64,000 nucleotides of DNA, taken from the IMG/VR virus record IMGVR_UViG_2974569193_000001, positions 108,702 through 172,701 of that record, one strand, 5' to 3'. Position numbers and translations under genes: made by a program. Shown piece by piece: positions 3,253 through 31,017 of this stretch (the first letter of the stretch is position 1; the number at the start of each line of letters is the position of its first letter). The stretch is from a virus. Lineage: Duplodnaviria; Heunggongvirae; Uroviricota; Caudoviricetes. Under the pieces are notes generated by a model, which worked only from the letters and a program-made list of their open reading frames with translations, searched no databases and was not told the DNA's origin.

Positions 3253-3273
3253 GGGAGACTCCTTGCTCGCGGC

Positions 3274-5403
3274 TTAGTAGCTGCCGAACTTCAGGTTGAG
3301 AGGGATGGTGCGGATCAGGGCTTCCAGGGCCTTGGTGCAGGCGGTCACCTGCTCGGTCGAGGTCGCATGATTCATGGTGTCGAGGAACTTGCGGATCGGG
3401 TGGTTGGTGTTGGCGTTCAGCTTGGTGTGCCCGTCCTCGAACGTCTTGGTCAGTTCCGAGCGCGGCGGTGCCTTGAACTGGCCCTCCACCTCGTAGAGCG
3501 CCTTGATGAAGGAGCGCTCGCGCTCGGTCCACTCGACGAGACCGGCGTCCAGCAGCGGCTTGAGCGCGCCGAAGTAGGCCGCGACCGGCGACTTCATCCG
3601 CGTCAGGCGGTCGAAGTCGGCCGGGCACTTGCTGATCGCCCGGCTGTAGAAGCTGTAGGACGTCGACGAGGTCGAGAGCTTCTGGACGGCCACGACGCAG
3701 TCATCCAGACCGATGTTGTGCTTGGCCTTGACCGCCGCGTCGATCGCCTCGCGCATGGTCGGGACCTTGGCGTCCTCGACGTGCTTCTGAGCGGTGGGCG
3801 AGGCGATGTAGATGTTCTTGATGCCGTACTTGTTGGCGACGACGAAGACGTCCTCGGCCTTCTTGCGGTACAGGTCCGACGACACCCAGGCCACCGTGCC
3901 GGCAGGGAAGGTGTCGACGCCGGTCACCGCCATCTGCTCGCCCGCGCGCTTGGCCAGGGCCAGACCCCGGATCGGCGGCACGTAGGCGGGCGCGTCCTTG
4001 CTGACCTTGTCGCGGCGCGGGACCTCGCCCTTCAGAGTGGCCACGTCGATGTCCTCGAACTTGGCGGTCGGCAGGGCGCAGTTCCAGAAGGCCTTGTCCT
4101 TGTCGAAGCCCAGCATGAACACGCCGTCTTTCAGGCTCTTGCTCTCCAGGTAGAGGCGCAGGATGCGCGCAAGGCGCCGCGTCTCGCTCTGGGAGAATTC
4201 GCGCTTGGTTGTATCGTCGCGCGACGGGTCAAGCAGGTCGGAGATGTCGCGCAGGACAAGGAAGTGAGTGTCGGTCTTCTGGTTCAGGTCGAGCGTGTTC
4301 TCGATCCGGTAGCCCCAGCGCTCGCGGTGCTGGTCGAACGAGGCCTTGTAGAGGCAGGCCACGCCGGGGAAGGAGATCGTCGTGCCGTCCAGGCCCGTCG
4401 CCGGGTGCTTGGGACGGCTGTTGATGAACGGCGGGCGCAGCTTGTTGTGGGTCGTGAAGAACTCGGTGACCGACTCGATGTCCTTGATCTTGACCCAGAT
4501 CGCCGCCTCGACCTCCTGGCTGATGGACTCGATCGTGTCTTGCAGGACCTTGACCGCCTCGGGCTTGTACTGGATTTCTTCGCGCGACGGAATGGGCTCG
4601 ACCGTGCCCATCGGGACGGTGATCAGCCACTTGCGGCCGTTGTCGTGCGGCAGGTTCAGGCCACCTTTGGCGGCCAGCGGGTAGATGGCGCAGCCCTGGC
4701 GCACGTTCCAGGTCGCCGGCAGTGCCGAGTCCGCATAGGCGGCCCAGACGCCGTTGGCGGCTTCGAACTGCGTCGTGCCCAGCGGGGTCCCCAGGTCGAT
4801 GTTGCTGTCGTACATGGGGATGAAGCCCATGGCGACGTTCTTGACGGCGCGCTCGAAGGCGGCGAAGTCCTTGCTGTCGACCGCGACGGTGACCCGCACG
4901 CCGGCCGGCTCCGAACAGTCCTCGGTGCCCTGAAGCATGACGCGCGGCACACCGCCCTTGCCGATCGCGGCGGTGTAATGGCGCACGACGTCGCCGTCGT
5001 AGCAGGACAGGGCGAATTGGCTGGTGTAGGCGAAGGGGCTCTTGGAGCCCAGGCCGAAGGCGCCGGTGAGATCGTCGGTCTCGTCCTTGTCCGACTCGAA
5101 CAGGGTCGAGTAGAGGTGCATGACCTTGCCGTGGTCCATGCCGGGGCCGTAGTCGCGCACGTAGAATTCGGGGCGCATCTCGTTGGGGACGTGGACGAAG
5201 AAGCTGCCGGGGTAGCCGGCGACGATATGGGCGTCCTGGGCGTTCGAGCAGATTTCGCGGACCAGCGAGCCGATCTTGTCCGAATAGAGCCCGTCGATCA
5301 GCATCTTGAACGCTTTGCCGGAGGCCTTGATCCGGAACTCCTGCTCCTCCTCAACGCCAATGGTTTCGAGGAAGACCGGTTCGGTGGCAAGACGCATAGT
5401 CAA
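3274..5403 (-). CDS. rIIA: rIIA-like protector from prophage-induced early lysis
   Basis: 709 aa. N-terminal GHKL/Bergerat ATPase N-box LVREICSNAQDA as in T4 rIIA; size matches (T4 rIIA about 725 aa). Promoter and SD upstream at 5404..5467. Confidence 0.75.
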   Translation of the reverse strand: MTMRLATEPVFLETIGVEEEQEFRIKASGKAFKMLIDGLYSDKIGSLVREICSNAQDAHIVAGYPGSFFVHVPNEMRPEFYVRDYGPGMDHGKVMHLYSTLFESDKDETDDLTGAFGLGSKSPFAYTSQFALSCYDGDVVRHYTAAIGKGGVPRVMLQGTEDCSEPAGVRVTVAVDSKDFAAFERAVKNVAMGFIPMYDSNIDLGTPLGTTQFEAANGVWAAYADSALPATWNVRQGCAIYPLAAKGGLNLPHDNGRKWLITVPMGTVEPIPSREEIQYKPEAVKVLQDTIESISQEVEAAIWVKIKDIESVTEFFTTHNKLRPPFINSRPKHPATGLDGTTISFPGVACLYKASFDQHRERWGYRIENTLDLNQKTDTHFLVLRDISDLLDPSRDDTTKREFSQSETRRLARILRLYLESKSLKDGVFMLGFDKDKAFWNCALPTAKFEDIDVATLKGEVPRRDKVSKDAPAYVPPIRGLALAKRAGEQMAVTGVDTFPAGTVAWVSSDLYRKKAEDVFVVANKYGIKNIYIASPTAQKHVEDAKVPTMREAIDAAVKAKHNIGLDDCVVAVQKLSTSSTSYSFYSRAISKCPADFDRLTRMKSPVAAYFGALKPLLDAGLVEWTERERSFIKALYEVEGQFKAPPRSELTKTFEDGHTKLNANTNHPIRKFLDTMNHATSTEQVTACTKALEALIRTIPLNLKFGSY

Positions 5404-5467
5404 CTCCAGGGGTTGGGATCAGTGATGTCGCCGATCCTTCTAGCTACCGCCTCCGGTTCTGTCAACA
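5404..5467 (-). promoter_or_regulatory. cassette-type promoter and leader for rIIA
   Basis: Minus strand: GTGTTGACAG, 17 bp, TAGAAG, then a leader ending GGAGTTGACT-ATG. Confidence 0.5.
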
Positions 5468-5719
5468 CACTCGATCCGGCTTTTTGGTCGTGAATCTTGA
5501 CGTTCGCGCGCGGGTCAGGCACAATTTTCGCATGTGGTCAATCCGCAACATCACGTCCGAAGCCTCCCACTCGATTCGCACCTGCACCTCCAAGGACTAC
5601 CCGTGGCCTGAGCGGGGGTCGGAGGGCTGCATTTGCCGCGAACCGGGCGCGCGCCGCGACCGGGACTTCATGTTGCTGGTCGATCGCCATGGCGAGATTC
5701 AATGGTACGCGAGGACGAC

Positions 5720-6127
5720 ATGCCCGATCCACGGCCCGAAGATCACGACGGTGGACGTCGCAACAAAATCCACGACCTGATCGTCGGTGACCCGCGCGAG
5801 GACCCGCGCTACAACCGCAAGCTCAGCAACCGCGACAAGACCGCCTTCCTCTGCGGGGTCCTGCGCCATCCGCCCCAGGCGTTCGACCTGGACCTGCCGT
5901 TCCCGGTCGAGGACTGGGTTGCCTCGGACGACAACTCCCTGATCGTGGCCGGCCTCTACCTGTCGGACCTGCGGCTCCAGTTCTACGACGCCCTGGAAGT
6001 CAAGCCCGAGGACGAGCACGGCTTCGTGCGCCAGGGCGAGGCCGAGTTCTGGCACCATGCCTTCAACGTCATGGTCGAGCGCCGCAGCCACGGCGTGCTG
6101 GTCTCCGACGGGCGCGTGCTCAATTGA
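5720..6127 (+). CDS. hypothetical protein
   Basis: ORF 5633..6127 trimmed to the ATG at 5720 (MPDPRPEDHDGG...). The R/P-rich upstream 29 aa are unlikely to be coding. Start is uncertain (alternatives at 5633 and 5702). Confidence 0.45.
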   Translation: MPDPRPEDHDGGRRNKIHDLIVGDPREDPRYNRKLSNRDKTAFLCGVLRHPPQAFDLDLPFPVEDWVASDDNSLIVAGLYLSDLRLQFYDALEVKPEDEHGFVRQGEAEFWHHAFNVMVERRSHGVLVSDGRVLN

Positions 6128-6495
6128 CCCTGCTCTATGACGGCGCCCTGGAAGGCAACTGCGTCGGCCGCTTCGTGCGCGCCGGCCAGACCTTCGACGT
6201 CATTCGCCCCGGCTACGACGCCCAGGGCGTCAAGCGCCAGACCTGGACCCAGATCATCCATGAGGGTGTGCCGGTCTTCGAGGTCAAGGTCCGCACCGAC
6301 CTCGACAACGTGATCGACCGCTTCGACACGCTCTGGGAGCGCCACATCGGCGATGACGCCGACTTCCTGGCCCGCGCCCTGGCCTCGGTCAAGCGCGAGC
6401 GGACCTCCAAGTTCCGCGACGGCAAGTCCGGCGTCGCCCCGGCCCCGACCCTGGTCCACGACGATCATCCCTACCCGCCGCACTATGTCGCATAA
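6124..6495 (+). CDS. hypothetical protein
   Basis: 123 aa. TTG start overlaps the upstream TGA as TTGA, implying translational coupling. Confidence 0.5.
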   Translation: MTLLYDGALEGNCVGRFVRAGQTFDVIRPGYDAQGVKRQTWTQIIHEGVPVFEVKVRTDLDNVIDRFDTLWERHIGDDADFLARALASVKRERTSKFRDGKSGVAPAPTLVHDDHPYPPHYVA

Positions 6496-6509
6496 TGTTG
6501 GCGCGAGAC

Positions 6510-6569
6510 TGTTGACACCTCTGATTTTGTGACATAGAAGCCTCCTCGACGACAACGAAGGAGGCTTTC
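6510..6569 (+). promoter_or_regulatory. canonical cassette promoter and leader for the recombinase gene
   Basis: CTGTTGACAC (6512-6517), 17 bp, TAGAAG (6535-6540), CCTCCT-CGACGACAAC-GA-AGGAGG, then CTTTC-ATG. Confidence 0.6.
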
Positions 6570-7196
6570 ATGCCCAAGCGGATCAAAGGCAAGCGCATCG
6601 CCCTGCACCAAGCCAAGGTGCTGGACGCCCAAGAGTTCCAGATGGTTCTCGACCGCGCCGAGCAGGGGGACAACCCGCTGCGCGACCGCGTGCTCTTCAA
6701 GCTCTCTTTCTATTGCGGCATGCGTGTCGCCGAGATCGCCGGCATGGAGTGGCGCAAGCACCTCCTCGACGCCAGCGGCCGGCTGCGTCCCGCCCTCCAC
6801 GTCACCCACGACATCGGCAAGAACGCCGTCGCCCGCCACGTCCCGATCGAGGCGTCGCTGGCGGCTGACCTGCGCGCCCTGCGCAAGGAACGCCCCAACG
6901 ACCGCTTCGTTATCTACCCGCTGCGCGCCTCGATGCGCGGTGGTCCCGAGAAGACCGACGCCAACACCCTGGCCCAGTATATGCGCCGCCTCTATCGTGA
7001 GGTCGGCCTGGACGGGGCCTCGTCGCACTCGGGTCGCCGCACCTTCATCACCGATCTGGCGCGCAAGGCGAACATGGCCGATTGCTCGCTCCGGGACATC
7101 CAGGAGATGGTTGGTCACCGGCGGATCGAAACGACCGGGACCTATATCGAGACGAGCCCCCGCCAGGACCGGCTCGTCAACATGGTCCTGCGATAG
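6570..7196 (+). CDS. tyrosine recombinase, phage-integrase family, catalytic domain only
   Basis: 208 aa. [14 protein letters not shown] ... [14 protein letters not shown] carries the R..HxxR..H..Y catalytic signature. There is no N-terminal arm-binding or core-binding domain. Preceded by a canonical cassette promoter, with SD AGGAGG. Confidence 0.8.
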
Positions 7197-14402: not shown

Positions 14403-15462
14403 CGTCGGCCGCCTCCTGCTGGGCCAGCCAATCGGCGTAGAGCGCTTGAAGGACCTTGACGCGGGCGCCGTCCATGTCGGACGGATCACGCAGGCCCTCG
14501 AACACCCCGTGGCGCGGCAGGTCGTAGTCGCCGGCCAGGGCATAGCTCATCTTGACGAACTGGCCCAGCGGTGGATTGGCGTAGAACTCGGCCTTGTTCT
14601 TGTCGTTCAGCCCCGAAGCGACGCGCGCGACCTCGCCCGGCCATTCGGGGAAGATCACCAGGAGCTTGCCGGCGCGACCCTTGGCGGCCTTGTTCGCCTT
14701 GTGGGTCGAGCGCTTGGTGTAGCCGCGCTCATCGAGCGTCGCCTCGTTGTTGTTGGCGAACTCCTCCTCGACGCCGACGCAGACGCCCTCCAGGTCGGCC
14801 TTGTCCTTGGCCTTGACGTTGTAGCCCTCCAGGACCGTCGAGCGGCCCGGCTTGTAGGGGCCGTCGAGCGCGCAGAAGATCAGGCCCTCGTCGTCGTTCT
14901 CCAGCGCCTCGCGGTACATCGCCAGCGCCTCCTCGGCGTTGCGAAGCAGGCGCTGCTCCAGGACCACCACCCACGACGGCAGGGAGAGTTCCAGGGCCTT
15001 GAGAGCGTTCAGACGCTCGGTCTTGCCGCCCGGCGTCAGGAAGTGCTCGAAGACGTAATAGCGGATGTCCGGCTCGCCAGCCTGGGTCATCACCGCCGAG
15101 GTCGACCCCCGGAAGTTCAGCTTGCCGTCGACCAGGATGCCGATCTCGCCGTCCAGGCCGTGCGGCAGCGTCGACAGCAGCTTGCGCACATGCAGGTTGG
15201 GGATGTATTTCAGTGAGCGGGTGATGCCATGGCCGATCACGTCGCGCTCGCTGGTCACCCAGCCGGTCTCGGTATGGGTGATCACGTCCGCGATCTTGTC
15301 GGGATGCACCGGCGAGACGCTGGCGCGAACCCCATCCTTCTTGAAGGACCCGTAGCACGGGAACTGGATGCGTGTTTCGAATTCGCTCGGCTTGACCGAG
15401 TCGGTGTCGGCCAGGGCGATCCGGAAGCGCCCGTAGAGCTTGGGCTTCTTGGTCTTGCTCAT
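14389..15462 (-). CDS. lig: ATP-dependent DNA ligase (T7-like)
   Basis: Start moved to MSKTKKPK (SD GAGGGGA). Motif I KKDGVRA (adenylated Lys), III DGEIGIL, IV EGLIFCALDGPYKPGRS, V NVKAKD. About 357 aa, similar to T7 ligase. Confidence 0.8.
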   Translation of the reverse strand: MSKTKKPKLYGRFRIALADTDSVKPSEFETRIQFPCYGSFKKDGVRASVSPVHPDKIADVITHTETGWVTSERDVIGHGITRSLKYIPNLHVRKLLSTLPHGLDGEIGILVDGKLNFRGSTSAVMTQAGEPDIRYYVFEHFLTPGGKTERLNALKALELSLPSWVVVLEQRLLRNAEEALAMYREALENDDEGLIFCALDGPYKPGRSTVLEGYNVKAKDKADLEGVCVGVEEEFANNNEATLDERGYTKRSTHKANKAAKGRAGKLLVIFPEWPGEVARVASGLNDKNKAEFYANPPLGQFVKMSYALAGDYDLPRHGVFEGLRDPSDMDGARVKVLQALYADWLAQQEAADDDAA

Positions 15463-15920
15463 CTCAATTTCCCCTCGATCAACTTGAGGCCGGGTTGGTC
15501 CCGGTCCATCTGGTAGACGGTGTAGCGATCGCCGTCGAACTCGACGCTGTAGACCCGGATGCCGGCGTTGAGGCACTGCATCCACATGTCCCGCGTGCCC
15601 GGCCCGCCGGGGAACGCCACGCAGACGTCGGGCTGGCTGGTCTCACGCATGCGGGTGTTGCGGCGCTTGGGCGCATCGTCGCCCTCGCCGTCCAGCGCGG
15701 GGTCGACCTTGTAGACCTCGGTGGCGAACCCCCACTTCTTGGCCCAGGCCCGGCAGAGCCGGTCATAGCCCACTGCATCACCGTCGACCCAGATCATGTC
15801 GCGCGGCCAGCGCAGCGCCGAGACCAGGGCCGACAGCACCAGGGTGGGCGCGACCTCGACGACGCCGACCCGGCCGCCGCAGACCACCGCCACGAACGGG
15901 CGTTCAGCTTCAGGCGTCAT
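15459..15920 (-). CDS. SLOG/DUF2493-like Rossmann-fold protein
   Basis: Start at MTPEAERPFVAVVCGGR. The loop VAFPGGPGTRDMW matches the LOG/SLOG PGGxGT motif. ATGA overlap with the ligase gene. Confidence 0.55.
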   Translation of the reverse strand: MTPEAERPFVAVVCGGRVGVVEVAPTLVLSALVSALRWPRDMIWVDGDAVGYDRLCRAWAKKWGFATEVYKVDPALDGEGDDAPKRRNTRMRETSQPDVCVAFPGGPGTRDMWMQCLNAGIRVYSVEFDGDRYTVYQMDRDQPGLKLIEGKLR

Positions 15921-17827: not shown

Positions 17828-18469
17828 CTAGGCGCTCCTAAGAGGCTCGAAAGGCTGGTCGCCGGCGATGTAGAGGGGGTGGCGGGGATGGCCGTCTTTG
17901 GACTTGCCAAGGCACTTGACTTCGACCCCGGTGATTTCGGCTTGCTGGACCGCGCCATAGTCTTGATCCTTGAACTCCCCATGGACACCCCAGCCGGCGA
18001 TGACATCGGCCTTGGCGGTGACAGCGTACTCGAAAGCGTGTTGCAGGAACCGGGCATTGAGCGGCCCGATCGGATCAGGCGCCGCCTTCATGATCGCCGG
18101 CGATTTGGACCGGAAGGCGAAGAGGTTGACGACGATGATCCCACCATAGTCGTCGCGGCGCGCAAAGCCCATGCACCGGCGGATGGTGTTGTCGTCCAGG
18201 CGCGCGGTGGCGGTGGACGGGTTGAGCATCATGAAGATCAGGAGCGGCTTGCTCGGGTCCCAGACCCGCATGAGCATGTAGCGAAAGGTCTCGCACTGCG
18301 AGAGGATCGCGGCCTTGATCACGTCGTTCTCGATCACCACGTCGCCATAGACGCCGGTGATCTCCGGATCGTCGATCGACAGTTCAGCGGTCCCGTCCTC
18401 CAGGACCCGCAGGAAGTCGCCCCAGGAGGGCGCGTTCAGTTGTGCGGTGATCGTCGTCATTCCTGACAT
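17828..18469 (-). CDS. DUF1643 family protein
   Basis: LIFMMLNPSTA signature of DUF1643. Start placed at MSGMTTITAQL, directly downstream of an AAGCGTTGACAAAGCC promoter, possibly leaderless. Confidence 0.65.
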   Translation of the reverse strand: MSGMTTITAQLNAPSWGDFLRVLEDGTAELSIDDPEITGVYGDVVIENDVIKAAILSQCETFRYMLMRVWDPSKPLLIFMMLNPSTATARLDDNTIRRCMGFARRDDYGGIIVVNLFAFRSKSPAIMKAAPDPIGPLNARFLQHAFEYAVTAKADVIAGWGVHGEFKDQDYGAVQQAEITGVEVKCLGKSKDGHPRHPLYIAGDQPFEPLRSA

Positions 18470-18755: not shown

Positions 18756-19013
18756 TCAATCCTCAAGCAGGGCCTTTTGAGCCAGGGCGCGATTGTACTC
18801 CAGGAGCTTGCGAAGAGCCTTGCGGTCGCCGTCAGCCATGGCGTAGAGCCGCACCACGTCATCGTAGTCGAATTCGTTGACGAGGTCGCGCAGGTCCTGG
18901 TCCATCTTGTCGATGGTCCGAAACAGGCGCTCGCGATATTGGCGCTGCTCCTGCCGGCGGCGACGGCCGGCGAGAACACCGATCCGCTGCCGCACGCGGC
19001 GATGACGCAGCAT
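18756..19013 (-). CDS. hypothetical small protein
   Basis: C-terminal 85 aa of ORF 18756..19232 (MLRHRRVRQRIGVL...EYNRALAQKALLED). Start overlaps the upstream TGA as TGATG. The R/G-rich upstream part is rejected. Confidence 0.35.
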   Translation of the reverse strand: MLRHRRVRQRIGVLAGRRRRQEQRQYRERLFRTIDKMDQDLRDLVNEFDYDDVVRLYAMADGDRKALRKLLEYNRALAQKALLED

Positions 19014-19525
19014 CAGAGCGTCTTGGGCGCGTGCCAGTCCTCGCGGTCGTCGGCATAGAGCACCGACGCCAGCGGACCGGTCCCGATGTCGCACTTGGCG
19101 GCGATCTCCACCGCCTGGGCGGCCGTGGCGCCCATGTGCAGCGCCCCCAGAGCCGACCACGTGCCCGAGCCGAAGGCGTAGAAGGGCGCACGCATCACAT
19201 AGGCCGGCGCGCCGCTCTCGAACCGCAGGCATGTGCCATCCGGGAGGATGACATAGCCGTTGGTCTCCTTGTCGGGCTTCTCAGGGCGGCCCATGTCGCA
19301 GTACGCGCCCTTGCCGCCGTCCGCCAGCCACTCGTCGAATTGCTCGGACTTGACCCAGTCGAGGAAGATTTGGACGTAGGACGACTCGCCCGCCGCGCCG
19401 AAGAGCAGCGTGCCGCCCGGTCCGGTGCGCTTGCCGATCTTGGGGACGTCCCCGCAGGGGGTCCACAGGTCCAGAACCCGCGCGTCGGCGGCCAGGGCGC
19501 CGTCTCGATAGACGATACACGTCAT
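19013..19525 (-). CDS. HslV / 20S proteasome beta-subunit-like Ntn-hydrolase peptidase
   Basis: 170 aa. Thr at position 2 (MTCIVYRDGALAAD) would become an N-terminal nucleophile after Met removal. FGSGTWSALGA...AVEIAAKCDIGTG resembles the HslV GSGG..A.GAA..AL and D..G segments. SD AGGAG. Confidence 0.6.
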   Translation of the reverse strand: MTCIVYRDGALAADARVLDLWTPCGDVPKIGKRTGPGGTLLFGAAGESSYVQIFLDWVKSEQFDEWLADGGKGAYCDMGRPEKPDKETNGYVILPDGTCLRFESGAPAYVMRAPFYAFGSGTWSALGALHMGATAAQAVEIAAKCDIGTGPLASVLYADDREDWHAPKTL

Positions 19526-21518: not shown

Positions 21519-22949
21519 TCAGGCGATCTCATAGCCAGCGGCGACGCGCTCGCGGATTTGGTCCAGCGTCGTCGGCTCCAGCACCTTGCCGGTGTTGAAG
21601 ACCTCGTCCAGCAGATCGTGCTCGACGACGTCGCCCTCGTGGACCGTGATGGTCTCGAAGCCGCCGGCCTCGTTGGTCACCAGGGCCAGCTTGCCCTTCT
21701 TGGAGACCTTGCCCGGATCGGTGATGGGGTCCTTGAAGATGTCGACCCACTCGCCGTTGATCTCTTGGGCCGACGACTTCATCGCCCACTTGTTGGTGTC
21801 GCGGTCCAGGTCGCCCGTCGCCAGACCACCGCCGGCCGCCGTCATGATGCTGTCGGGCGCGATGCCCAGGTCGCGACCCAGATAGAACGGGTCCATGTGG
21901 GTGTGCTCGTTCATGCCGTCGCCCTGGAGGACCTTGGCGTTCAGGTTGAGCACGTCCAGACCCTTGCTGTTGCGTTGGGTCCCGAAGCCGTCGGCCATGA
22001 TCTTGAGCACCGGCGGGATGACCTCGCCCAGCTTGCCGCTATCGGGACGGCAGACGATCGTGATGTTCTTGTTGGCGATCAGGTCCTTGAACTTCACCAG
22101 CTTGCGGGTGAACTCGAAGATGTTCCAGGTGTCGCCGACCAGCGAGACGATCGAACCAGCCGGCGCCCGGTTCAGGCAGTGCTCGATGTATTCGTCGTCG
22201 TTGTCGCGCCCGAACGAGCAGGAGATCGAGTGCTCGGTGGCCAGCACCGAGTAGGCCGACATCTCGCTGAAGTAGTTGATGTTCGCCGCGCGCACGGCCG
22301 GGACGTTGTCCGAGCCCTGGAAGTGGTAGAGGTGCGCGATGCCGGCCAGGACCGAGTGATCATAGCCCATGGTGCCGCGCGAGGAGAAGTCCAGGAAAGC
22401 GAACGGCGACATCGGCGTGTCGCTGGTGAGGTCCCAGAAGCTCTTGATCCGCGACGCGATGTTGTTGACGCGCGCGGCGATCGTCGAGGCCGTCCAGACG
22501 TCGCGCAGGATCATGGTCTCGAAGTACGAGGTCAGCCAGGGCAGGCGCGGGTCGAGGTTCTCGACGCTGATCAGGGCGTTCTTGACCGGGATCATCATGC
22601 CCTCGGGCACGGCCTTGATGCGCAGCGGCAGGTAGCCGCCGTACTCGTTCAGGATGATCTCCCAGCCGTCGCGGTTGAACGGCAGGCCGTGGGCCGGCAC
22701 GAACACGGCCATCTCGTCGATGTCGGCGCGGGTGATCGGCTTGCAGAGCTTCTGGAAGAGCAGGCGCTGGAACGCGGCCAGCATCACCTTGGGGTAACGC
22801 CCGCCCCGGCTCTCGATGTAGCTGTAGACGGTGGTGCAGCCGTCGCGATAGAGCACCCAGTGCCCCAGCTTGTAGCTGTCGGTGTCGGCGATCAGGTTGT
22901 AGGTCTCGACGGGAGCGACCCCGTCCCATTTGGCGATGTCGAAGGCCAT
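21519..22949 (-). CDS. nadV: nicotinamide phosphoribosyltransferase (NAMPT/NadV)
   Basis: 476 aa. N-terminal DTDSYKLGHW (NAPRTase-family DSYK..H signature) and overall NAMPT-like length. Antisense ORFs 21558..22970 are artefacts. Confidence 0.85.
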   Translation of the reverse strand: MAFDIAKWDGVAPVETYNLIADTDSYKLGHWVLYRDGCTTVYSYIESRGGRYPKVMLAAFQRLLFQKLCKPITRADIDEMAVFVPAHGLPFNRDGWEIILNEYGGYLPLRIKAVPEGMMIPVKNALISVENLDPRLPWLTSYFETMILRDVWTASTIAARVNNIASRIKSFWDLTSDTPMSPFAFLDFSSRGTMGYDHSVLAGIAHLYHFQGSDNVPAVRAANINYFSEMSAYSVLATEHSISCSFGRDNDDEYIEHCLNRAPAGSIVSLVGDTWNIFEFTRKLVKFKDLIANKNITIVCRPDSGKLGEVIPPVLKIMADGFGTQRNSKGLDVLNLNAKVLQGDGMNEHTHMDPFYLGRDLGIAPDSIMTAAGGGLATGDLDRDTNKWAMKSSAQEINGEWVDIFKDPITDPGKVSKKGKLALVTNEAGGFETITVHEGDVVEHDLLDEVFNTGKVLEPTTLDQIRERVAAGYEIA

Positions 22950-22959
22950 GATGTCCCCT

Positions 22960-24183
22960 TTATGCGTTGAGGCTGAGCATGCGGTCCACGATGAAGGCGT
23001 GGTCCTCGAAGGTGTTGGACGGGTCGATCTCGGAGATCGGGTCCCAGTCGGCGGCGGCGGCGTCGTCGTGCCCCTTGACCACCGGCAGGCTCAGGCCCAG
23101 CGCCGGCGGCGGGATGAGGAAGTGGAAAGCGGTCGAGATGATGTGGGCGCGCCGCGAGCGGTGCGGATCGTCAAAGACCTGGGGCTCGCCGACCAGGAAG
23201 CGGCGAAGCTCCTCCATGGCCTTGACCACGTAGCCCGGCGCGGCCGGCGGGCGCAGGCCCAGCTTCTCGGCCTGCTTGCAGGCGGCGAGCCAGTGGACGA
23301 AGTTGGGATAGTCCCGCTCGGAAATGAACAGCGCGGTCTCTTCGATGATCTCGCGCAGGCAGTTGGCCAGCAGCGAGGAGCCGGCGTTGACGAAGCCGCC
23401 GGGCAGGGCCTTCATGCCCAGCCCCTCGGCGCCGCCGCGCTCGATCCGCAGAACGTGACCGGCGCACTCGACCACGCCGTCGACGGCCAGGAACGGACCC
23501 GGCCCCCAGCGTTCGCGGTAGGCGTCCTCGGCCTTCTTCTGGTCGAGCAGGTAGGCGTAGACCTTCTTGTCGCGGAACCGCTCCAGGAAGTCGATGGTGC
23601 TCGGATAGAGCAGATCGGTCCAGGCATGGCCCCGGTCGCTCCAGGCGGTGTCGCGGAAGTTGACCCCGCCGGCGAAGTAGGCTTGACGCAGAGCCGTGGC
23701 GTTGACGCCGTTGTCCTCGACCGGGGTATAGGGCCATTGCGGGAACCAAGTCAGGTATTCGCTGGTGGCGTCGCGGACGTTGCCGATCAGGGTGACGCGC
23801 GGGCGCAGCACCTTGGTGGCGTTCTTGACGTGCTGCTGGACCTGGGCGATCCACTCGTTCTTGCCATAGGGGCCGGTGTCGTTGAGCGCGATCACCTCGG
23901 TGTTCGACAGGTGATGCAGGATGCGCTCGCCGGTGATCTCGACATCGCTATCTTCGACCTCCTCGCGGGCCAGATCGCTGAGCCCGTTGAGGATCATCTC
24001 CTTGCGTTCCTCGAACACGAAGGGATTGCGCGTGTCGCGGGCGAGGTTGGCCGAGCCGATGAACCAGAGGACCTTGCGGGCCTTCTTGCGCGCCGCCTGA
24101 TACAGGCGGAAGTGGCCGAGCTTGGTCGGCATTTGCGCCCGCGTGATCAGCACCGCGATGTCGTACTCGAAATCCACCATCAC
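22960..24183 (-). CDS. natV: bifunctional NMN adenylyltransferase / Nudix ADP-ribose pyrophosphatase (NatV/NadM-like)
   Basis: 407 aa. N-terminal nucleotidyltransferase region (VLITRAQMPTKLGHFRLYQ). C-terminal Nudix box GGFVNAGSSLLANCLREIIEETAL. Confidence 0.8.
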   Translation of the reverse strand: MMVDFEYDIAVLITRAQMPTKLGHFRLYQAARKKARKVLWFIGSANLARDTRNPFVFEERKEMILNGLSDLAREEVEDSDVEITGERILHHLSNTEVIALNDTGPYGKNEWIAQVQQHVKNATKVLRPRVTLIGNVRDATSEYLTWFPQWPYTPVEDNGVNATALRQAYFAGGVNFRDTAWSDRGHAWTDLLYPSTIDFLERFRDKKVYAYLLDQKKAEDAYRERWGPGPFLAVDGVVECAGHVLRIERGGAEGLGMKALPGGFVNAGSSLLANCLREIIEETALFISERDYPNFVHWLAACKQAEKLGLRPPAAPGYVVKAMEELRRFLVGEPQVFDDPHRSRRAHIISTAFHFLIPPPALGLSLPVVKGHDDAAAADWDPISEIDPSNTFEDHAFIVDRMLSLNA

Positions 24184-24635
24184 CTCCTAAAGGCCGGGCG
24201 GATGCGCCGGGCCGGCTTGTTCTCGGTCAATTCCCGCCCGCTGAAGGGCGGGAAGGAAAGCTCGCTGATGCCGTTCTGCCGGATGGCGAACTGGCGCTTC
24301 TTGGTGTCGATCCCGTCGAGGTGCGTGCTGCGCCGCCGCTCGATGAGTTCGAGGTCGACGACGTCACCAAACACCTTGCCGTGGAAAATCTGCCGCCGCG
24401 CCCAGGTGATGGCCGAACCCAGGTGCTCGAAGGTCCTGGTCTTCTCGGCCTCCAGGAGGCTGGCGCCGTCATGGAAGGACGGGTCCACCCACGACAGCTT
24501 GATTTCCCGCGCCGGGAGAGACTTGACCAGGACGTTGATGGGCTCGTAGCCGAAACGCTGGGCAAAGTCGCCCACGTCGTAGCTCTCGATGTCCAGCACC
24601 ACCATGGTGATCGGCTTGGTCGTTACGGACGACAC
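24180..24635 (-). CDS. hypothetical protein
   Basis: 151 aa; GTG start directly after an AAGCGTTGACAAAGCC promoter, possibly leaderless. Confidence 0.5.
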   Translation of the reverse strand: MSSVTTKPITMVVLDIESYDVGDFAQRFGYEPINVLVKSLPAREIKLSWVDPSFHDGASLLEAEKTRTFEHLGSAITWARRQIFHGKVFGDVVDLELIERRRSTHLDGIDTKKRQFAIRQNGISELSFPPFSGRELTENKPARRIRPAFRR

Positions 24636-24665
24636 TATCGATTTCCCTCCGGCTTTGTCAACGCT
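24636..24665 (-). promoter_or_regulatory. second-class promoter AAGCGTTGACAAAGCC, possibly leaderless
   Basis: An identical 16-mer AAGCGTTGACAAAGCC, 17 bp, then ATAGTG, where the GTG is the start codon of gene 24180..24635. Confidence 0.45.
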
Positions 24666-25142
24666 TTAACGCAGGAGCTTGAGCGAGGCCGGCGCGTGGT
24701 ACTTGAACGACGACTCGGTGATCGGTCCAATTCCGACGAAGGTCACGGTGGGCTTGTCGAAAACGGTCCGGCCGGCGTCCACGACCAGGGTCGCGCCAGA
24801 GTAATCGCGGAACCGCTCGTAGAGGGCTTCCAGTTCTTCGTTGGTGCCGGTGTGGAGCGCGATCTTCGCCGCCGACTGCGAGTAGCGGTACTGGCGCGCG
24901 GTCTTCGGAAATCGCTCCATGGCGTCCCACCACGCATGCAGATAGGCGTGTCCAGCCTGGGCGGAGAGCTTGCCGATGTTAAGGGACTTGTCCTCCGGCT
25001 TGCGGCTGCGCTTGGCCACGGTCATCGCGTCGAGCGCTTCCTGGCTGACGATGGCGTAGAGTCGCAGTTCCGCCTTGGGCTTGCCGGCGAAGCAGGCCAT
25101 CAGAAGGTCCCAGGCGTGCAGCCAGTTGTCGATGAATTTCAT
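24666..25142 (-). CDS. pth2: peptidyl-tRNA hydrolase, PTH2 family
   Basis: 158 aa. GKLSAQAGHA (Pth2 GKxAAQxxHA) and C-terminal TLVVDAGRTVF...TFVGIGP...LKLL match Pth2. Confidence 0.7.
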   Translation of the reverse strand: MKFIDNWLHAWDLLMACFAGKPKAELRLYAIVSQEALDAMTVAKRSRKPEDKSLNIGKLSAQAGHAYLHAWWDAMERFPKTARQYRYSQSAAKIALHTGTNEELEALYERFRDYSGATLVVDAGRTVFDKPTVTFVGIGPITESSFKYHAPASLKLLR

Positions 25143-26678: not shown

Positions 26679-27293
26679 TCAGCCAGCCGCAGCCACCAAC
26701 TTCTCGATGCGGTTGAAGCCCAGTTCGAGCCGGCCCCAGAAGGCGCTCGGCACGTGCGGCTTGACGACCTCGGTGAAGCGCGCGCGCTCCTTGAGGTACA
26801 TCTTGGCCATGCCCAGGTGAGGCGCCTGGGTCGCCGGGTCCTTGATCGACGCCTCGACGTTGGCGATCCGGTCGGCCAGCTTCAGGATGCAGGCCTCGGG
26901 GTTCTCGCCGAGCTTGCGATAGATGTCCTCGTTGCGGGACTTGCGGTTGGGACCGATGCCCGAGACCGCCCAGACCAGCGCCGCGACGCGGTCGCCGAAC
27001 TTGTCCTCGATCATCTGACGGCGGGCCTCGGGCGTCATGTCGAGGTGGGTGTCCTCGATCACGTCGTGCAGCTTGGCCGCCGCCGTCCAGGTGAAGCCGG
27101 CATAGCCGAAATCGTCCAGGATGCGCTCGACCTTCTGGAGGTGGTAGAGGTAGGGCTGGCCGGCGTACTGCTGATCGCCGTGCGCGGCGATGGCGAACTT
27201 CGTCGGGTCCTCCTGGTGGAAGCCGCCGGGCGCGCCGACGTCCGCCATCAGGTTGGCCAGTTGGTCGGGATCGGACAGGGGCGTGTCGGTCAT
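26679..27293 (-). CDS. HD-domain small alarmone hydrolase ((p)ppGpp hydrolase, SpoT/Mesh1-like)
   Basis: 204 aa. AAHGDQQYAGQPYLYHLQKV ... LHDVIEDT matches the RelA/SpoT hydrolase HD motif (H..GQ.R..G.PY..H ... LHD..EDT). Confidence 0.75.
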   Translation of the reverse strand: MTDTPLSDPDQLANLMADVGAPGGFHQEDPTKFAIAAHGDQQYAGQPYLYHLQKVERILDDFGYAGFTWTAAAKLHDVIEDTHLDMTPEARRQMIEDKFGDRVAALVWAVSGIGPNRKSRNEDIYRKLGENPEACILKLADRIANVEASIKDPATQAPHLGMAKMYLKERARFTEVVKPHVPSAFWGRLELGFNRIEKLVAAAG

Positions 27294-29784: not shown

Positions 29785-31017
29785 CTAGCCCTTCACGCAG
29801 AGGACTTGCTTCAGGGTGTGGACGATGTCCACGAGGTCCTTCTGCGCCTCCATGACCGCGTCGATGTCCTTGTAGGCCATCGGGATTTCGTCGATCACGC
29901 CGATGTCCTTGCGGCACTCGACGCCTTCGGTCGCCTTGATCTGGTCTTCCAGCGTGAAGGCCGCCTTGGCGGCGGTGCGCGACATGGTCCGGCCCGCGCC
30001 GTGCGAGCACGAGCAGAACGAGTCGGCGTTGCCCTTGCCGCGCACGATGTAGGACTTGGCCCCCATCGAGCCGGGGATGATGCCGAACTGGTCCTTCTGA
30101 GCCGACACCGCGCCCTTGCGGGTCACGAAGACCCACTCGTCGAAGTGGAACTCCTTCTGGACGTAGTTGTGGTGGCAGTTCACCGCTTCCTTGTCCGTCT
30201 TGAAGGGCGGCAGGCCCGAGGCGCGCATGGCGTCCAGGACCCGGATCATCATCATCTCGCGGTTGATCCGCGCGAAGTCCTGGCCCCAGGCGACGGCTTC
30301 CACGTAGTCGTAGAATTCCGGCTCGCCTTCCGACAGCCACGCGAGGTCCTTGTCGAGCGGCTTCTGGCCGTCCCGACGCAGCATCATCTCCTTGGCCTTC
30401 TCGATGAAGATACGACCGATGGTGTTGCCGACGCCGCGCGAGCCCGAGTGGAGCATCACCCAGACGCGCTGGTCCTCGTCGAGGCAGACCTCGATGAAGT
30501 GGTTGCCGCCGCCCAGCGTGCCCAGTTGGACGACGCTGTTGGCGTTCTTGAGGGCCTTGTACTTGTCGCAGAGCTTCTCGAACCGAGCCTCCAGGCCCGA
30601 GTCGACCCACTTGCGCATGATCGAGTTCGGGATGCCGCTGCGCCCGTTCCAGCCGCCCGACGGACCCGGCCCGCCGTGCGGGACGGCGTGCTCGATCAGC
30701 GAGCGCAGCTTGGCGAGGCTGTCGGGCAGGTCCGAGGCCGTCAGCGAGGTGCGCACGGCCATCATGCCGCAGCCGATGTCCACGCCCACGGCCGCCGGGA
30801 TGATGGCGCCCTTGGTCGGGATCACCGAGCCCACGGTCGAGCCGATGCCCATGTGGACGTCCGGCATCAGGGCCACGTGCGAATGGATGAACGGCAGGGC
30901 GGCGAGGTTGTGCGCCTGCACCTGGGCGGGTTGTTCGAAGGTCACGCCCCGGACCCAGGCCTTGATCACCCCGCCGTTCCAGCCGGTGATCTCTTCGTAT
31001 TGGGTCTCGGCGGTCAT
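29785..31017 (-). CDS. rtcB: RNA-splicing ligase RtcB
   Basis: 410 aa. RtcB hallmarks: HSHVALMPDVHMGIGSTVGSVIP, GGGNHFIE, HSGSRG, NCHHNYV, SCSHGAGR. Cassette promoter upstream. Confidence 0.9.
   Translation of the reverse strand: MTAETQYEEITGWNGGVIKAWVRGVTFEQPAQVQAHNLAALPFIHSHVALMPDVHMGIGSTVGSVIPTKGAIIPAAVGVDIGCGMMAVRTSLTASDLPDSLAKLRSLIEHAVPHGGPGPSGGWNGRSGIPNSIMRKWVDSGLEARFEKLCDKYKALKNANSVVQLGTLGGGNHFIEVCLDEDQRVWVMLHSGSRGVGNTIGRIFIEKAKEMMLRRDGQKPLDKDLAWLSEGEPEFYDYVEAVAWGQDFARINREMMMIRVLDAMRASGLPPFKTDKEAVNCHHNYVQKEFHFDEWVFVTRKGAVSAQKDQFGIIPGSMGAKSYIVRGKGNADSFCSCSHGAGRTMSRTAAKAAFTLEDQIKATEGVECRKDIGVIDEIPMAYKDIDAVMEAQKDLVDIVHTLKQVLCVKG

What the first reader, a model, noticed from the sequence alone, without database searches (positions are those of the whole stretch)
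21519..24183. Phage NAD+ salvage pair NadV (NAMPT) + NatV (NMNAT-Nudix)
Adjacent co-directional genes encode a nicotinamide phosphoribosyltransferase (DSYKLGHW signature) and a bifunctional NMN adenylyltransferase / Nudix hydrolase (Nudix box GGFVNAGSSLLANCLREIIEETAL). From established knowledge, this two-enzyme NAD-regeneration pathway is carried by some large phages. It has been shown to rebuild NAD+ from ADP-ribose plus nicotinamide and so overcome NAD-depleting defences such as Thoeris, DSR, SEFIR and some CBASS systems. Its presence suggests the host or its relatives use NADase-type abortive infection.
Basis: partly seen in the sequence, partly recalled or inferred. Interest (0 to 1): 0.55.

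Follow-up and report, generated by a model that had tools for sequence, protein, structure and literature searches.

The report
Known phage NAD+ salvage gene pair
The two genes are real and encode a nicotinamide phosphoribosyltransferase and an NMN adenylyltransferase/Nudix enzyme, but this is the already annotated and already catalogued "NARP2" NAD+ salvage pair of Caulobacter phage CcrBL10, so it is an ordinary finding.

Summary
The window is an exact piece of Caulobacter phage CcrBL10. It carries NatV (22960-24177) and NadV (21519-22949) on the minus strand, 10 nt apart. NadV passes the NCBIfam equivalog cutoff and keeps the NAMPT catalytic residues checked. NatV models confidently (pLDDT 95.5) as a full-length NadM-Nudix enzyme.

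The pair is annotated in GenBank. Supplementary Table 2 of Osterman et al. 2024 lists this very protein as "Nmnat-associated", i.e. NARP2. It is already known.

- Rebuilding NAD+ from ADP-ribose plus nicotinamide is NARP1. NARP2 uses PRPP, nicotinamide and ATP.
- NARP2 was shown only against type I Thoeris and DSR2.
- The genome has no Adps.

Two minor unreported details emerged.
- The phiCbK-like NatV has a non-canonical first motif, TRAQMPTKLGH instead of GRFQPFHxGH, and lacks the first Nudix-box Glu. Both domains are nevertheless under purifying selection.
- An orphan 151-aa gene (24180-24635) directly abuts NatV's start in CcrBL10 and about 14 related phages and contigs. Its function is unknown.

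The parts
21519..22949 (-). nadV: nicotinamide phosphoribosyltransferase (Nampt), 476 aa; CcrBL10 gp154c
   Evidence: Pfam NAMPT_N 6e-20 and NAPRTase 7e-25. NCBIfam NF006629 scores 428 bits against a cutoff of 405. phrog_448 1.6e-142. PDB Xanthomonas NAMPT 7yqo 4.8e-95 and human NAMPT about 6e-66. Of 22 human NAMPT active-site residues mapped, 21 are conserved, with only S398->A. Listed as 'Nmnat-associated' in Osterman Table S2.
22950..22959 (-). 10-nt NatV-NadV spacer 'AGGGGACATC' holding the Shine-Dalgarno sequence for nadV
   Evidence: Read directly from the sequence.
22960..24177 (-). natV: bifunctional NMN adenylyltransferase / Nudix (ADP-ribose pyrophosphatase-type), 405 aa from the GTG at 24177 (alternative starts ATG 24180, GTG 24183); CcrBL10 gp155c
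   Evidence: phrog_395 1.2e-77. NCBIfam PRK05379 scores 224 bits, below the equivalog cutoff of 397. PDB 2qjo 2.4e-40 and 2qjt 2.1e-26. AF2 pLDDT 95.5, pTM 0.91. Foldseek to 2qjo/2qjt gives E about 1e-29 to 1e-31 and target-normalised TM 0.86-0.91. dN/dS is 0.06-0.47 in the core segments across four comparisons.
24112..24144 (-). Non-canonical nucleotidyltransferase motif TRAQMPTKLGH, in place of GRFQ-PFHxGH
   Evidence: Translation confirmed. Column statistics over 115 homologs: G13 107/115, F15 97/115, the inserted residue occurs in only 2/115, first His 99/115 (Q 11, T 3, K/R 2). R14, G22 and H23 are kept. The pattern T-[KR]-x-G-H is conserved in six phiCbK-like phages.
23329..23400 (-). 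Nudix box GGFVNAGSSLLANCLREIIEETAL: the REIIEE core is intact, but the G-x5-E glutamate is Ser
   Evidence: Translation confirmed. At the first-Glu position E occurs in 104/115 homologs and CcrBL10 is the only Ser. R276, E277, E280 and E281 are conserved in at least 112/115.
24180..24635 (-). Orphan small ORF gp156c (151 aa, phrog_12373). It abuts natV: the natV Shine-Dalgarno AGGAGG lies in its last codons and its stop overlaps candidate natV starts. Possible third member of the cassette; function unknown.
   Evidence: phrog_12373 8.4e-70. Junction sequence read. Homologs sit in the same position in CcrRogue, RBC8, BL57, CcrSwift, phiCbK, CcrPW, Gurke, Bajun and five metagenomic contigs; Karma and a 280-kb Caulobacter phage contig also carry a homolog, but the position was not inspected. 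No Pfam hit. AF2 pLDDT 60.8 and no PDB fold match.

Best explanation
This is the NARP2-type NAD+ salvage module of Caulobacter phage CcrBL10, a phiCbK-like Poindextervirus.

Proposed mechanism:
- NadV (Nampt) condenses nicotinamide with host PRPP to give NMN.
- The N-terminal domain of NatV transfers AMP from ATP onto NMN to give NAD+.
- The C-terminal Nudix domain of NatV most likely hydrolyses ADP-ribose to AMP and ribose-5-phosphate. Host PRPP synthetase can turn the ribose-5-phosphate back into PRPP.
- The two genes are co-transcribed in the order natV then nadV, probably together with the small upstream ORF.

The result is that the infected cell keeps or raises its NAD+ pool. This supports phage replication in general. 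It would also blunt NADase-based defences (TIR, SIR2 and similar) if the host carries them.

Shown here: gene identity, intact Nampt active site, NadM-Nudix fold, purifying selection, operon-like layout, absence of Adps.

Inferred from the KVP40 homologues and from enzyme-family knowledge: the actual activities, the ADPR-to-PRPP loop and the anti-defence effect.
For: - The window is 100% identical to MH588544.1 and sits at genome position 108702.
- NadV: equivalog-level NCBIfam hit, strong PDB NAMPT hits, and 21 of 22 mapped human NAMPT active-site residues conserved, including D219 (nicotinamide specificity) and H247.
- NatV: full-length sequence and structure match to Synechocystis and Francisella NadM-Nudix. 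It keeps R14, G22, H23, G42-S43, R48, N52-P53, T162, R165 and the REIIEE core.
- dN/dS is 0.06-0.47 for the catalytic-domain segments and about 0.3-1.3 for the two lineage-specific insertions.
- The natV-nadV adjacency holds in CcrPW, Gurke, Bajun and six of seven metagenomic contigs.
- No Adps: tblastn with three Adps proteins against all 220,934 bp gives a best E of 1.3.
- NadV scores 322 bits to Xanthomonas NAMPT but only 72-153 bits to two NARP1 Namat proteins.
- Osterman et al. Table S2 labels this protein 'Nmnat-associated'. That paper describes the NARP2 chemistry and phenotype.
Against: - No experiment exists for any CbK-like phage enzyme.
- NatV lacks the first His of the (H/T)xGH motif, has a one-residue insertion there, and has T and A in place of the G and F of GRFQ.
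- NatV lacks the first Nudix-box Glu.
- NatV falls well below every NCBIfam NadM equivalog cutoff (224 vs 397 bits).
- The pair is a conserved core gene set of the whole phage subfamily. Anti-defence genes more often have a patchy distribution, so the defence-evasion role is not established.
- No NADase defence system of Caulobacter was identified here (one search was uninformative).
Confidence: 0.82

Rival explanations
1. The enzymes are the same, but the selected function is general metabolic support rather than defence evasion. The pair acts as an auxiliary metabolic gene set that raises NAD+ for a large phage with heavy nucleotide and redox demand.
For: - NARP2 raises NAD+ even without any defence system.
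- NAMPT and NMNAT are shared ortholog groups of the whole CbK-like cluster. They occur in all 40 Caulobacter and Brevundimonas phage records hit.
- They lie in a replication/metabolism region with RtcB, an HD hydrolase and a Pth2-like gene.
- The CbK-like Erythrobacter phage paper treats them as auxiliary metabolic genes.
Against: - This reading and defence evasion are not mutually exclusive.
- The homologous KVP40 pair abolished Thoeris and DSR2 defence.
- No NAD+-consuming phage enzyme was found: the phage ligase looks ATP-dependent, and no ADP-ribosyltransferase or Sir2 is annotated.
Confidence: 0.35
2. The NMNAT domain of the phiCbK-like NatV is catalytically impaired or has changed specificity, for example to another nucleotide or to NaMN. 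The phage would then contribute mainly Nampt and ADP-ribose hydrolysis, and host enzymes would finish NAD+ synthesis.
For: - The motif is TRAQMPTKLGH instead of GRFQPFHxGH, with a one-residue insertion seen in only 2 of 115 homologs. The first His is replaced in this clade (Q, T or K/R).
- Pfam CTP_transf_like scores only 21.3 bits against a cutoff of 21.
- NCBIfam scores are far below the equivalog cutoffs.
Against: - Thr is an accepted alternative at the first position of the (H/T)xGH motif (established knowledge). The closest relatives have canonical TKGH or TRGH.
- R14, H23 and R165 are conserved. By motif correspondence they match R11, H19 and R136 of the archaeal NMNAT, which are the residues targeted in the mutant structures listed. 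This mapping is my inference from the motifs, not a computed alignment.
- dN/dS for the NMNAT segments is 0.11-0.31.
- T-[KR]-x-G-H is itself conserved across six phages.
- The model is confident through this region, with pLDDT 89-96 for residues 1-30.
Confidence: 0.12
3. The pair performs the chemistry the first reader described, direct reconstitution of NAD+ from ADP-ribose and nicotinamide (NARP1-like).
For: KVP40 Nampt can use ADPR-PP weakly in vitro. Nampt and Namat are homologous.
Against: - No Adps or Prs-like gene exists in the genome to make ADPR-PP.
- NadV is much closer to true Nampt than to Namat. In the one pairwise alignment made, it also lacks the roughly 20-residue insertion that the Namat sequences carry after the RPDSG motif.
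- Osterman et al. class it as Nmnat-associated and found no phage carrying both pathways.
Confidence: 0.03

Closest known systems
NARP2 of Vibrio phage KVP40 (NadV/Nampt + NatV/Nmnat-Nudix; Lee et al. 2017 as cited in, and Osterman et al. 2024, bioRxiv 10.1101/2024.02.11.579819)
   Same: Same two enzyme families and domain architecture. Same predicted chemistry: nicotinamide + PRPP -> NMN, then + ATP -> NAD+, with a Nudix ADP-ribose pyrophosphatase domain. No Adps. The CcrBL10 protein is listed in that paper's own table as 'Nmnat-associated'.
   Different: - NatV is only about 29% identical to the homolog from Vibrio phage nt-1, a large T4-type vibriophage used here as a stand-in for KVP40.
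- In nt-1 no nadV lies within 6 kb of natV. In CcrBL10 the two genes are 10 nt apart.
- CcrBL10 NatV has a variant first motif, lacks the first Nudix-box Glu, and carries two extra helical insertions at about residues 71-95 and 286-325.
- A small orphan ORF is coupled upstream.
- No experimental data exist for the CbK-like version.
Bacterial NadM-Nudix (Synechocystis slr0787, PDB 2qjo; Francisella tularensis NadM, PDB 2qjt/2r5w)
   Same: Full-length two-domain match. Sequence E-values are 2.4e-40 and 2.1e-26. Foldseek target-normalised TM is 0.86-0.91. The GSxxxxRxxxNPF and xATxxR motifs and the REUxEE Nudix core are shared.
   Different: About 26-30% identity. HLGH is replaced by (T)KLGH with an insertion. 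The Nudix G-x5-E Glu is replaced by Ser. About 65 extra residues sit in two insertions. The score is below the NCBIfam equivalog cutoffs.
NAMPT / NadV (human NAMPT, e.g. PDB 2gvg; Xanthomonas NAMPT, PDB 7yqo)
   Same: Same length and domains. 322 bits to Xanthomonas NAMPT and 226 bits to human NAMPT. Active-site residues are conserved.
   Different: S398->A. It lacks the roughly 10-residue loop of vertebrate NAMPT near residue 42-51. Phage-encoded.
NARP1 (Adps + Namat) and NARP3 (PnuC + NadR-like)
   Same: Same end product and the same proposed biological purpose, restoring NAD+ during infection.
   Different: NARP1 starts from ADP-ribose via ADPR-PP and needs Adps, which is absent here. NARP3 imports nicotinamide riboside, and no PnuC or NadR is annotated in CcrBL10.

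Membership tests
NAMPT / NadV (type II phosphoribosyltransferase) | NAMPT_N plus NAPRTase catalytic domain, scoring at equivalog level | tested here: met
   PF18127 6.3e-20 and PF04095 7e-25. NF006629 scores 428 bits against a cutoff of 405, covering 17-471 of 476 residues.
NAMPT / NadV (type II phosphoribosyltransferase) | Active-site residues of human NAMPT (D16, Y18, F193, R196, D219, H247, R311, D313, G353, D354, G383-385, R392, K400, K415, K423) | tested here: met
   All are conserved: D24, Y26, F188, R191, D214, H240, R301, D303, G343, D344, G373-375, R383, K391, K406, K414. Only S398->A389 differs (from the alignment). The list of functional residues comes from established NAMPT structural literature, recalled from memory.
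NAMPT / NadV (type II phosphoribosyltransferase) | Catalyses nicotinamide + PRPP -> NMN | not testable with these tools
   Needs an enzyme assay.
NadM-Nudix bifunctional NMNAT / ADP-ribose pyrophosphatase (NatV) | N-terminal nucleotidyltransferase domain fused to a C-terminal Nudix domain, matching solved NadM-Nudix over the full length | tested here: met
   PDB 2qjo matches over query residues 6-287 and 330-403. The AF2 model (pLDDT 95.5) gives Foldseek E 2.7e-31 and target-normalised TM 0.89-0.91 to 2qjo.
NadM-Nudix bifunctional NMNAT / ADP-ribose pyrophosphatase (NatV) | GRFQPxHxGH, i.e. the (H/T)xGH nucleotidyltransferase motif | tested here: inconclusive
   The sequence is TRAQMPTKLGH. 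R, Q, G and the second H are kept. The G and F of GRFQ and the first H are not, and there is one extra residue. A Thr lies one position upstream of where H/T is expected. The variant is conserved in the clade and under purifying selection.
NadM-Nudix bifunctional NMNAT / ADP-ribose pyrophosphatase (NatV) | Second NMNAT motif (I)SxTxxR | tested here: met
   NATALR. T162 is found in 108/115 homologs and R165 in 115/115. Francisella NadM has NATEFR.
NadM-Nudix bifunctional NMNAT / ADP-ribose pyrophosphatase (NatV) | Nudix catalytic core REUxEE | tested here: met
   REIIEE at residues 276-281, with each position conserved in at least 112/115 homologs.
NadM-Nudix bifunctional NMNAT / ADP-ribose pyrophosphatase (NatV) | First glutamate of the Nudix box (G-x5-E) | tested here: not met
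   Ser268. E occurs in 104/115 homologs, and CcrBL10 is the only Ser.
NadM-Nudix bifunctional NMNAT / ADP-ribose pyrophosphatase (NatV) | NCBIfam PRK05379 equivalog score cutoff | tested here: not met
   The best score is 224 bits against a cutoff of 397. It is a divergent phage subfamily; phrog_395 matches at 1.2e-77.
NARP2 (Osterman et al. 2024) | Nampt of the Nmnat-associated clade, not the Adps-associated Namat clade | tested here: met
   The paper's Table S2 labels MH588544_00183 'Nmnat-associated'. NadV scores 322 bits to NAMPT and 72-153 bits to Namat.
NARP2 (Osterman et al. 2024) | An Nmnat encoded in the same phage, and no Adps | tested here: met
   natV lies 10 nt upstream of nadV. 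tblastn with three Adps proteins against the whole genome gives a best E of 1.3.
NARP2 (Osterman et al. 2024) | Restores NAD+ and overcomes NAD+-depleting defence | not testable with these tools
   Shown only for the KVP40 genes, against type I Thoeris and DSR2.
NARP1 (Adps + Namat) | A PRPS-like ADPR pyrophosphokinase (Adps) next to the Nampt-family gene | tested here: not met
   No Adps homolog anywhere in the 220,934-bp genome. The neighbour of nadV is an NMNAT-Nudix gene.

The most novel reading that the evidence does not exclude
In CbK-like (Dolichocephalovirinae) phages, NARP2 may be a three-gene, tightly coupled cassette rather than a pair. The third gene is an orphan protein of about 115-175 aa (CcrBL10 gp156c, phrog_12373 family; conserved core F-x-H-L-G-x-A-x-x-W-A-R-R). 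It has no Pfam or PDB-fold relatives and sits directly upstream of natV.

It could be an accessory subunit or regulator of the pathway. One possibility is that it limits the PRPP drain and toxicity reported for KVP40 NARP2.

In part of the same lineage, NatV has relaxed or re-engineered the first position of its HxGH motif (H to Q, T, or K/R with an insertion). That may reflect altered catalysis or regulation.
Probability: 0.22. Interest if true: 0.45.

Novelty: already known. Interest (0 to 1): 0.15.

Why it matters
It matters little as a discovery. The pair has been annotated in phiCbK-like genomes since 2012-2018. It is listed by name in the paper that defined NARP2, and comparative papers describe it as a core gene set of CbK-like phages.

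The value of this check lies in three things:
- It corrects the NARP1/NARP2 chemistry mix-up.
- It documents that the Nampt active site is intact.
- It flags two small leads that have not been described: a variant NMNAT motif in a Caulobacter-phage lineage, and a conserved orphan gene coupled to natV.

Caulobacter with phiCbK is a tractable model system, so both leads could be tested cheaply.

Tried and rejected
- The long plus-strand ORFs (21558-22970 and 22930-24549) were rejected as high-GC antisense artefacts. Their third-position GC is 0.57-0.72, against 0.92-0.95 for the minus-strand genes.
- The promoter and terminator scan of 19-29 kb was uninformative. It found one sigma-70-like site (24661-24634, minus strand, just upstream of gp156c) against 0.8 expected, and four terminator-like sites against 5.2 expected.
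- I looked for other NAD-related genes that might explain the pair. No LigA, ADP-ribosyltransferase, Sir2, NadR, PnuC, NadE or Prs is annotated in the whole genome. The phage ligase gives only weak ATP-dependent-ligase hits. Most genes are 'hypothetical', so absence by annotation is weak evidence. Absence of Adps was tested directly.
- For gp156c, the single-sequence search found only 2 relatives. The IMG/VR scan found only 4 loci, all Caulobacter phages. Pfam at E<=1 found nothing for 12 members. The AF2 model was mediocre (pLDDT 60.8). The PDB Foldseek search had no hit with E<0.2, and the weak eIF4E and Maf hits were rejected as noise. The afdb50 library was unavailable.
- The small ORF does not track the non-His NMNAT variant. 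It occurs with canonical-His NatVs too (L021, L022, L024, L025).
- A literature search for NADase defences in Caulobacter returned only general reviews.
Full report
**What is there.** The window is an exact 64-kb piece of Caulobacter phage CcrBL10 (MH588544.1 / NC_048045.1). This is a 220,934-bp phiCbK-like siphovirus of the genus Poindextervirus, subfamily Dolichocephalovirinae, and the window starts at genome position 108702. The interval in the finding holds two minus-strand ORFs. NadV is 21519-22949 (476 aa, gp154c). NatV is 22960-24183 as the longest ORF.

GenBank starts NatV at the GTG at 24177 (405 aa). That codon lies 5 nt after a perfect AGGAGG, and an ATG at 24180 is also possible. 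Transcription runs natV then nadV, with a 10-nt spacer AGGGGACATC that serves as nadV's ribosome-binding site. Third-codon-position GC of 0.92-0.95 supports these frames. The long antisense ORFs have GC3 of 0.57-0.72 and are artefacts of a 65% GC genome.

**NadV.** It carries NAMPT_N and the NAPRTase catalytic domain. It passes the NCBIfam equivalog NF006629 (428 bits against a cutoff of 405) and matches phrog_448 at 1.6e-142. It aligns end to end with solved NAMPTs: Xanthomonas 7yqo at 4.8e-95 and human at about 6e-66.

I mapped the alignment onto human numbering. Every residue I know to line the active site is conserved: D16, Y18, F193, R196, D219, H247, R311, D313, G353, D354, G383-385, R392, K400, K415 and K423. 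The only change is S398->A. The list of functional residues is from established NAMPT structural work, recalled from memory. The mapping itself is computed.

**NatV.** It matches phrog_395 at 1.2e-77 and the solved NadM-Nudix enzymes of Synechocystis (2qjo, 2.4e-40) and Francisella (2qjt, 2.1e-26) over both domains. An AlphaFold2 model built on 115 homologs is very confident (pLDDT 95.5, pTM 0.91). Its best PDB matches are those same structures over their full length, with target-normalised TM of 0.86-0.91. Next come ADP-ribose-type Nudix domains and archaeal NMNATs.

It is nevertheless a divergent member. Pfam scores barely pass (22.4 and 21.3 bits), and all NCBIfam NadM equivalogs are missed by a wide margin (224 against 397 bits).

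Across 115 homologs the first motif is GRFQ-PFHxGH. CcrBL10 has TRAQMPTKLGH (24112-24144). The G (107/115) is T and the F (97/115) is A. There is an extra residue seen in only 2 of 115 sequences. The first His (99/115) is replaced by Lys, with a Thr one position upstream. All six phiCbK-like phages I compared keep T-[KR]-x-G-H. The next relatives have canonical TKGH or TRGH, or an unusual Q[ED]GH (11 sequences).

In the Nudix box the G-x5-E glutamate (104/115) is Ser, while the REIIEE core is intact.

Set against these deviations, R14, G22, H23, G42-S43, R48, N52-P53, T162 and R165 are all kept. By motif correspondence R14, H23 and R165 are the residues mutated in the archaeal NMNAT structures that appear (R11, H19, R136). 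This correspondence is my inference, not a computed alignment.

Nei-Gojobori dN/dS between CcrBL10 and four relatives is 0.11-0.31 for the NMNAT segments and 0.06-0.47 for the Nudix segments. It is about 0.75-1.3 for the insertion at residues 71-95 and 0.30-0.94 for the insertion at residues 286-325. The model shows both insertions as helical. I conclude the enzyme is most likely active with a variant (T)xxGH motif. I leave about 12% for an impaired or re-specified NMNAT domain.

**Which pathway.** Osterman et al. 2024 define two pathways.
- NARP2 uses Nampt and Nmnat to turn PRPP plus nicotinamide into NMN, which is then adenylated with ATP to NAD+.

NARP2 (the KVP40 genes) abolished type I Thoeris and DSR2 defence. 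DSR1, SIR2-HerA and SEFIR were shown for NARP1. CBASS is only predicted.

CcrBL10 fits NARP2 on several counts.
- natV is adjacent to nadV.
- tblastn with three Adps proteins finds nothing in the whole genome (best E 1.3).
- NadV is far closer to true Nampt (322 bits) than to two Namat sequences (72-153 bits). In the one pairwise alignment made, it also lacks their insertion after RPDSG.

Decisively for novelty, Supplementary Table 2 of that paper lists MH588544_00183, 'Caulobacter phage CcrBL10', as 'Nmnat-associated', with this exact sequence. phiCbK is listed too. GenBank already annotates gp154c as nicotinamide phosphoribosyltransferase and gp155c as a NadM-family NMNAT/ADP-ribose pyrophosphatase. 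Two comparative papers describe the pair as shared by CbK-like phages. It attached NARP1's substrates and defence list to a NARP2 module.

**Function in this phage.** The anti-defence role is an inference from KVP40. The pair is conserved in all 40 Caulobacter and Brevundimonas phage records hit, and NARP2 raises NAD+ even without a defence system. A constitutive metabolic role is therefore at least as plausible, and the two roles are not exclusive.

I found no phage-encoded NAD+ consumer that would give a third rationale. The ligase looks ATP-dependent, and nothing relevant is annotated elsewhere in the genome. Most of those genes are unannotated, so this is weak evidence. The claim that the host uses NADase-type abortive infection could not be tested.

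**A by-product: the upstream ORF.** gp156c (24180-24635, 151 aa, phrog_12373) ends inside natV's start region, and natV's AGGAGG is formed by its last codons. Homologs sit in the same abutting or overlapping position in many relatives:
- CcrRogue, RBC8, BL57, CcrSwift and phiCbK
- CcrPW and Brevundimonas phage Gurke
- Bajunvirus and five metagenomic contigs

Karma and a 280-kb Caulobacter phage contig also carry a homolog, but I did not inspect its position there.

The immediate flanking genes differ between these genera. Several profile hits lie on contigs whose lengths match contigs that carry NatV homologs. The ORF is absent from two more distant natV contexts (L026, L027), from Xanthomonas phage X1 and from Vibrio phage nt-1. 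It does not correlate with the non-His motif.

It has no Pfam match. Its model is confident only in a core of about 60 residues, and there is no PDB fold match. The wider region is broadly syntenic in these phages, with RtcB, an HD hydrolase and a Pth2-like gene recurring nearby. Conservation of position alone is therefore weak evidence for functional linkage. I rate a real role in the NAD module at about 0.2-0.25.

**Verdict.** The finding is real, correctly located and correctly named, but it is already known and catalogued. Interest is low.

Noticed in passing
window 24180-24635 (-): An orphan small ORF (gp156c, phrog_12373) is tightly coupled to the natV start. It holds that position in CcrBL10 and about 14 CbK-like phages and contigs. 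It has no Pfam or PDB-fold relatives. Conserved core: F-x-H-L-G-x-A-x-x-W-A-R-R.
   Followed up: yes
window 24590-24605 (-) region of gp156c; L024:2522-3004: The N-termini of several members of the small-ORF family carry a D-[IL]-E-[ST] stretch (CcrBL10 VLDIESYD, Swift FDIETGGLG, Bajun MDIETTGLNGE). This resembles the Exo I motif of DEDD exonucleases. The proteins are too short for a full exonuclease, and the CcrPW-type members lack the stretch, so it may be coincidence.
   Followed up: no
window 24666-25142 (-): A Pth2-like peptidyl-tRNA hydrolase (PF01981 4.2e-14; phrog_11824 4.8e-90) lies just upstream of the cassette. A PTH2 gene also lies near natV in metagenomic contig L020.
   Followed up: no
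window 26679-27293 (-): An HD-domain protein resembles the hydrolase half of SpoT/RelA (PF13328 HD_4 2.3e-9; TIGR00691 1.6e-12 over residues 33-147). An HD_4 gene recurs within a few kb of natV in L020, L022, L024 and L026, and CcrPW has an annotated metal-dependent phosphohydrolase nearby. It could be an alarmone or nucleotide hydrolase.
   Followed up: partly
window 29785-31017 (-): An RtcB RNA ligase (PF01139 4e-123) also recurs upstream of natV in L021 and L022. Together with the many phage tRNAs and the Pth2-like gene, it suggests a tRNA/RNA-repair theme in this region.
   Followed up: no
window 15459-15893 (-) and 17828-18460 (-): gp145c gives a sub-threshold hit to the YAcAr/SLOG family (22.8 bits against a cutoff of 28.2). 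SLOG domains are linked to NAD/ADPR-derived nucleotides in the literature (paper). gp147c is a DUF1643 protein (1e-40).
   Followed up: no
window 19013-19525 (-): An HslV-like NTN-hydrolase/peptidase homolog (phrog_1040 7.5e-42) with no Pfam hit.
   Followed up: no
window 21519-24177 compared with L006/L007: Synonymous divergence between CcrBL10 and CcrSwift/phiCbK is 0.20 for nadV but 0.50 for the adjacent natV. This hints at a recombination boundary between the two genes, or at different codon constraints.
   Followed up: no
P0045 (628 aa, 19,446-bp JGI contig): A NatV homolog carries precomputed Pfam hits to both NAMPT_N and CTP_transf_like. It may be a NatV-NadV fusion or a gene-calling merge.
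   Followed up: no
L026:626-1129 and 3001-6701: In a more distant phage contig, natV and nadV are separated by three small genes. A NADAR-domain protein, a PRA-PH protein and an HD_4 protein lie just upstream, which is a richer NAD/ADPR neighbourhood than in CcrBL10.
   Followed up: no
L015:1253-2083: Xanthomonas phage X1 encodes an annotated NAD(+) synthase about 2 kb upstream of natV, and a 152-aa unrelated ORF lies between natV and nadV.
   Followed up: no
window 24634-24661 (-): The only sigma-70-like promoter match in 19-29 kb (TTGACA-16-GATAGT) sits in the 30-nt gap just upstream of gp156c. That would fit a gp156c-natV-nadV transcript, but one match against 0.8 expected is not significant, and Caulobacter promoters differ from the E. 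coli consensus.
   Followed up: partly
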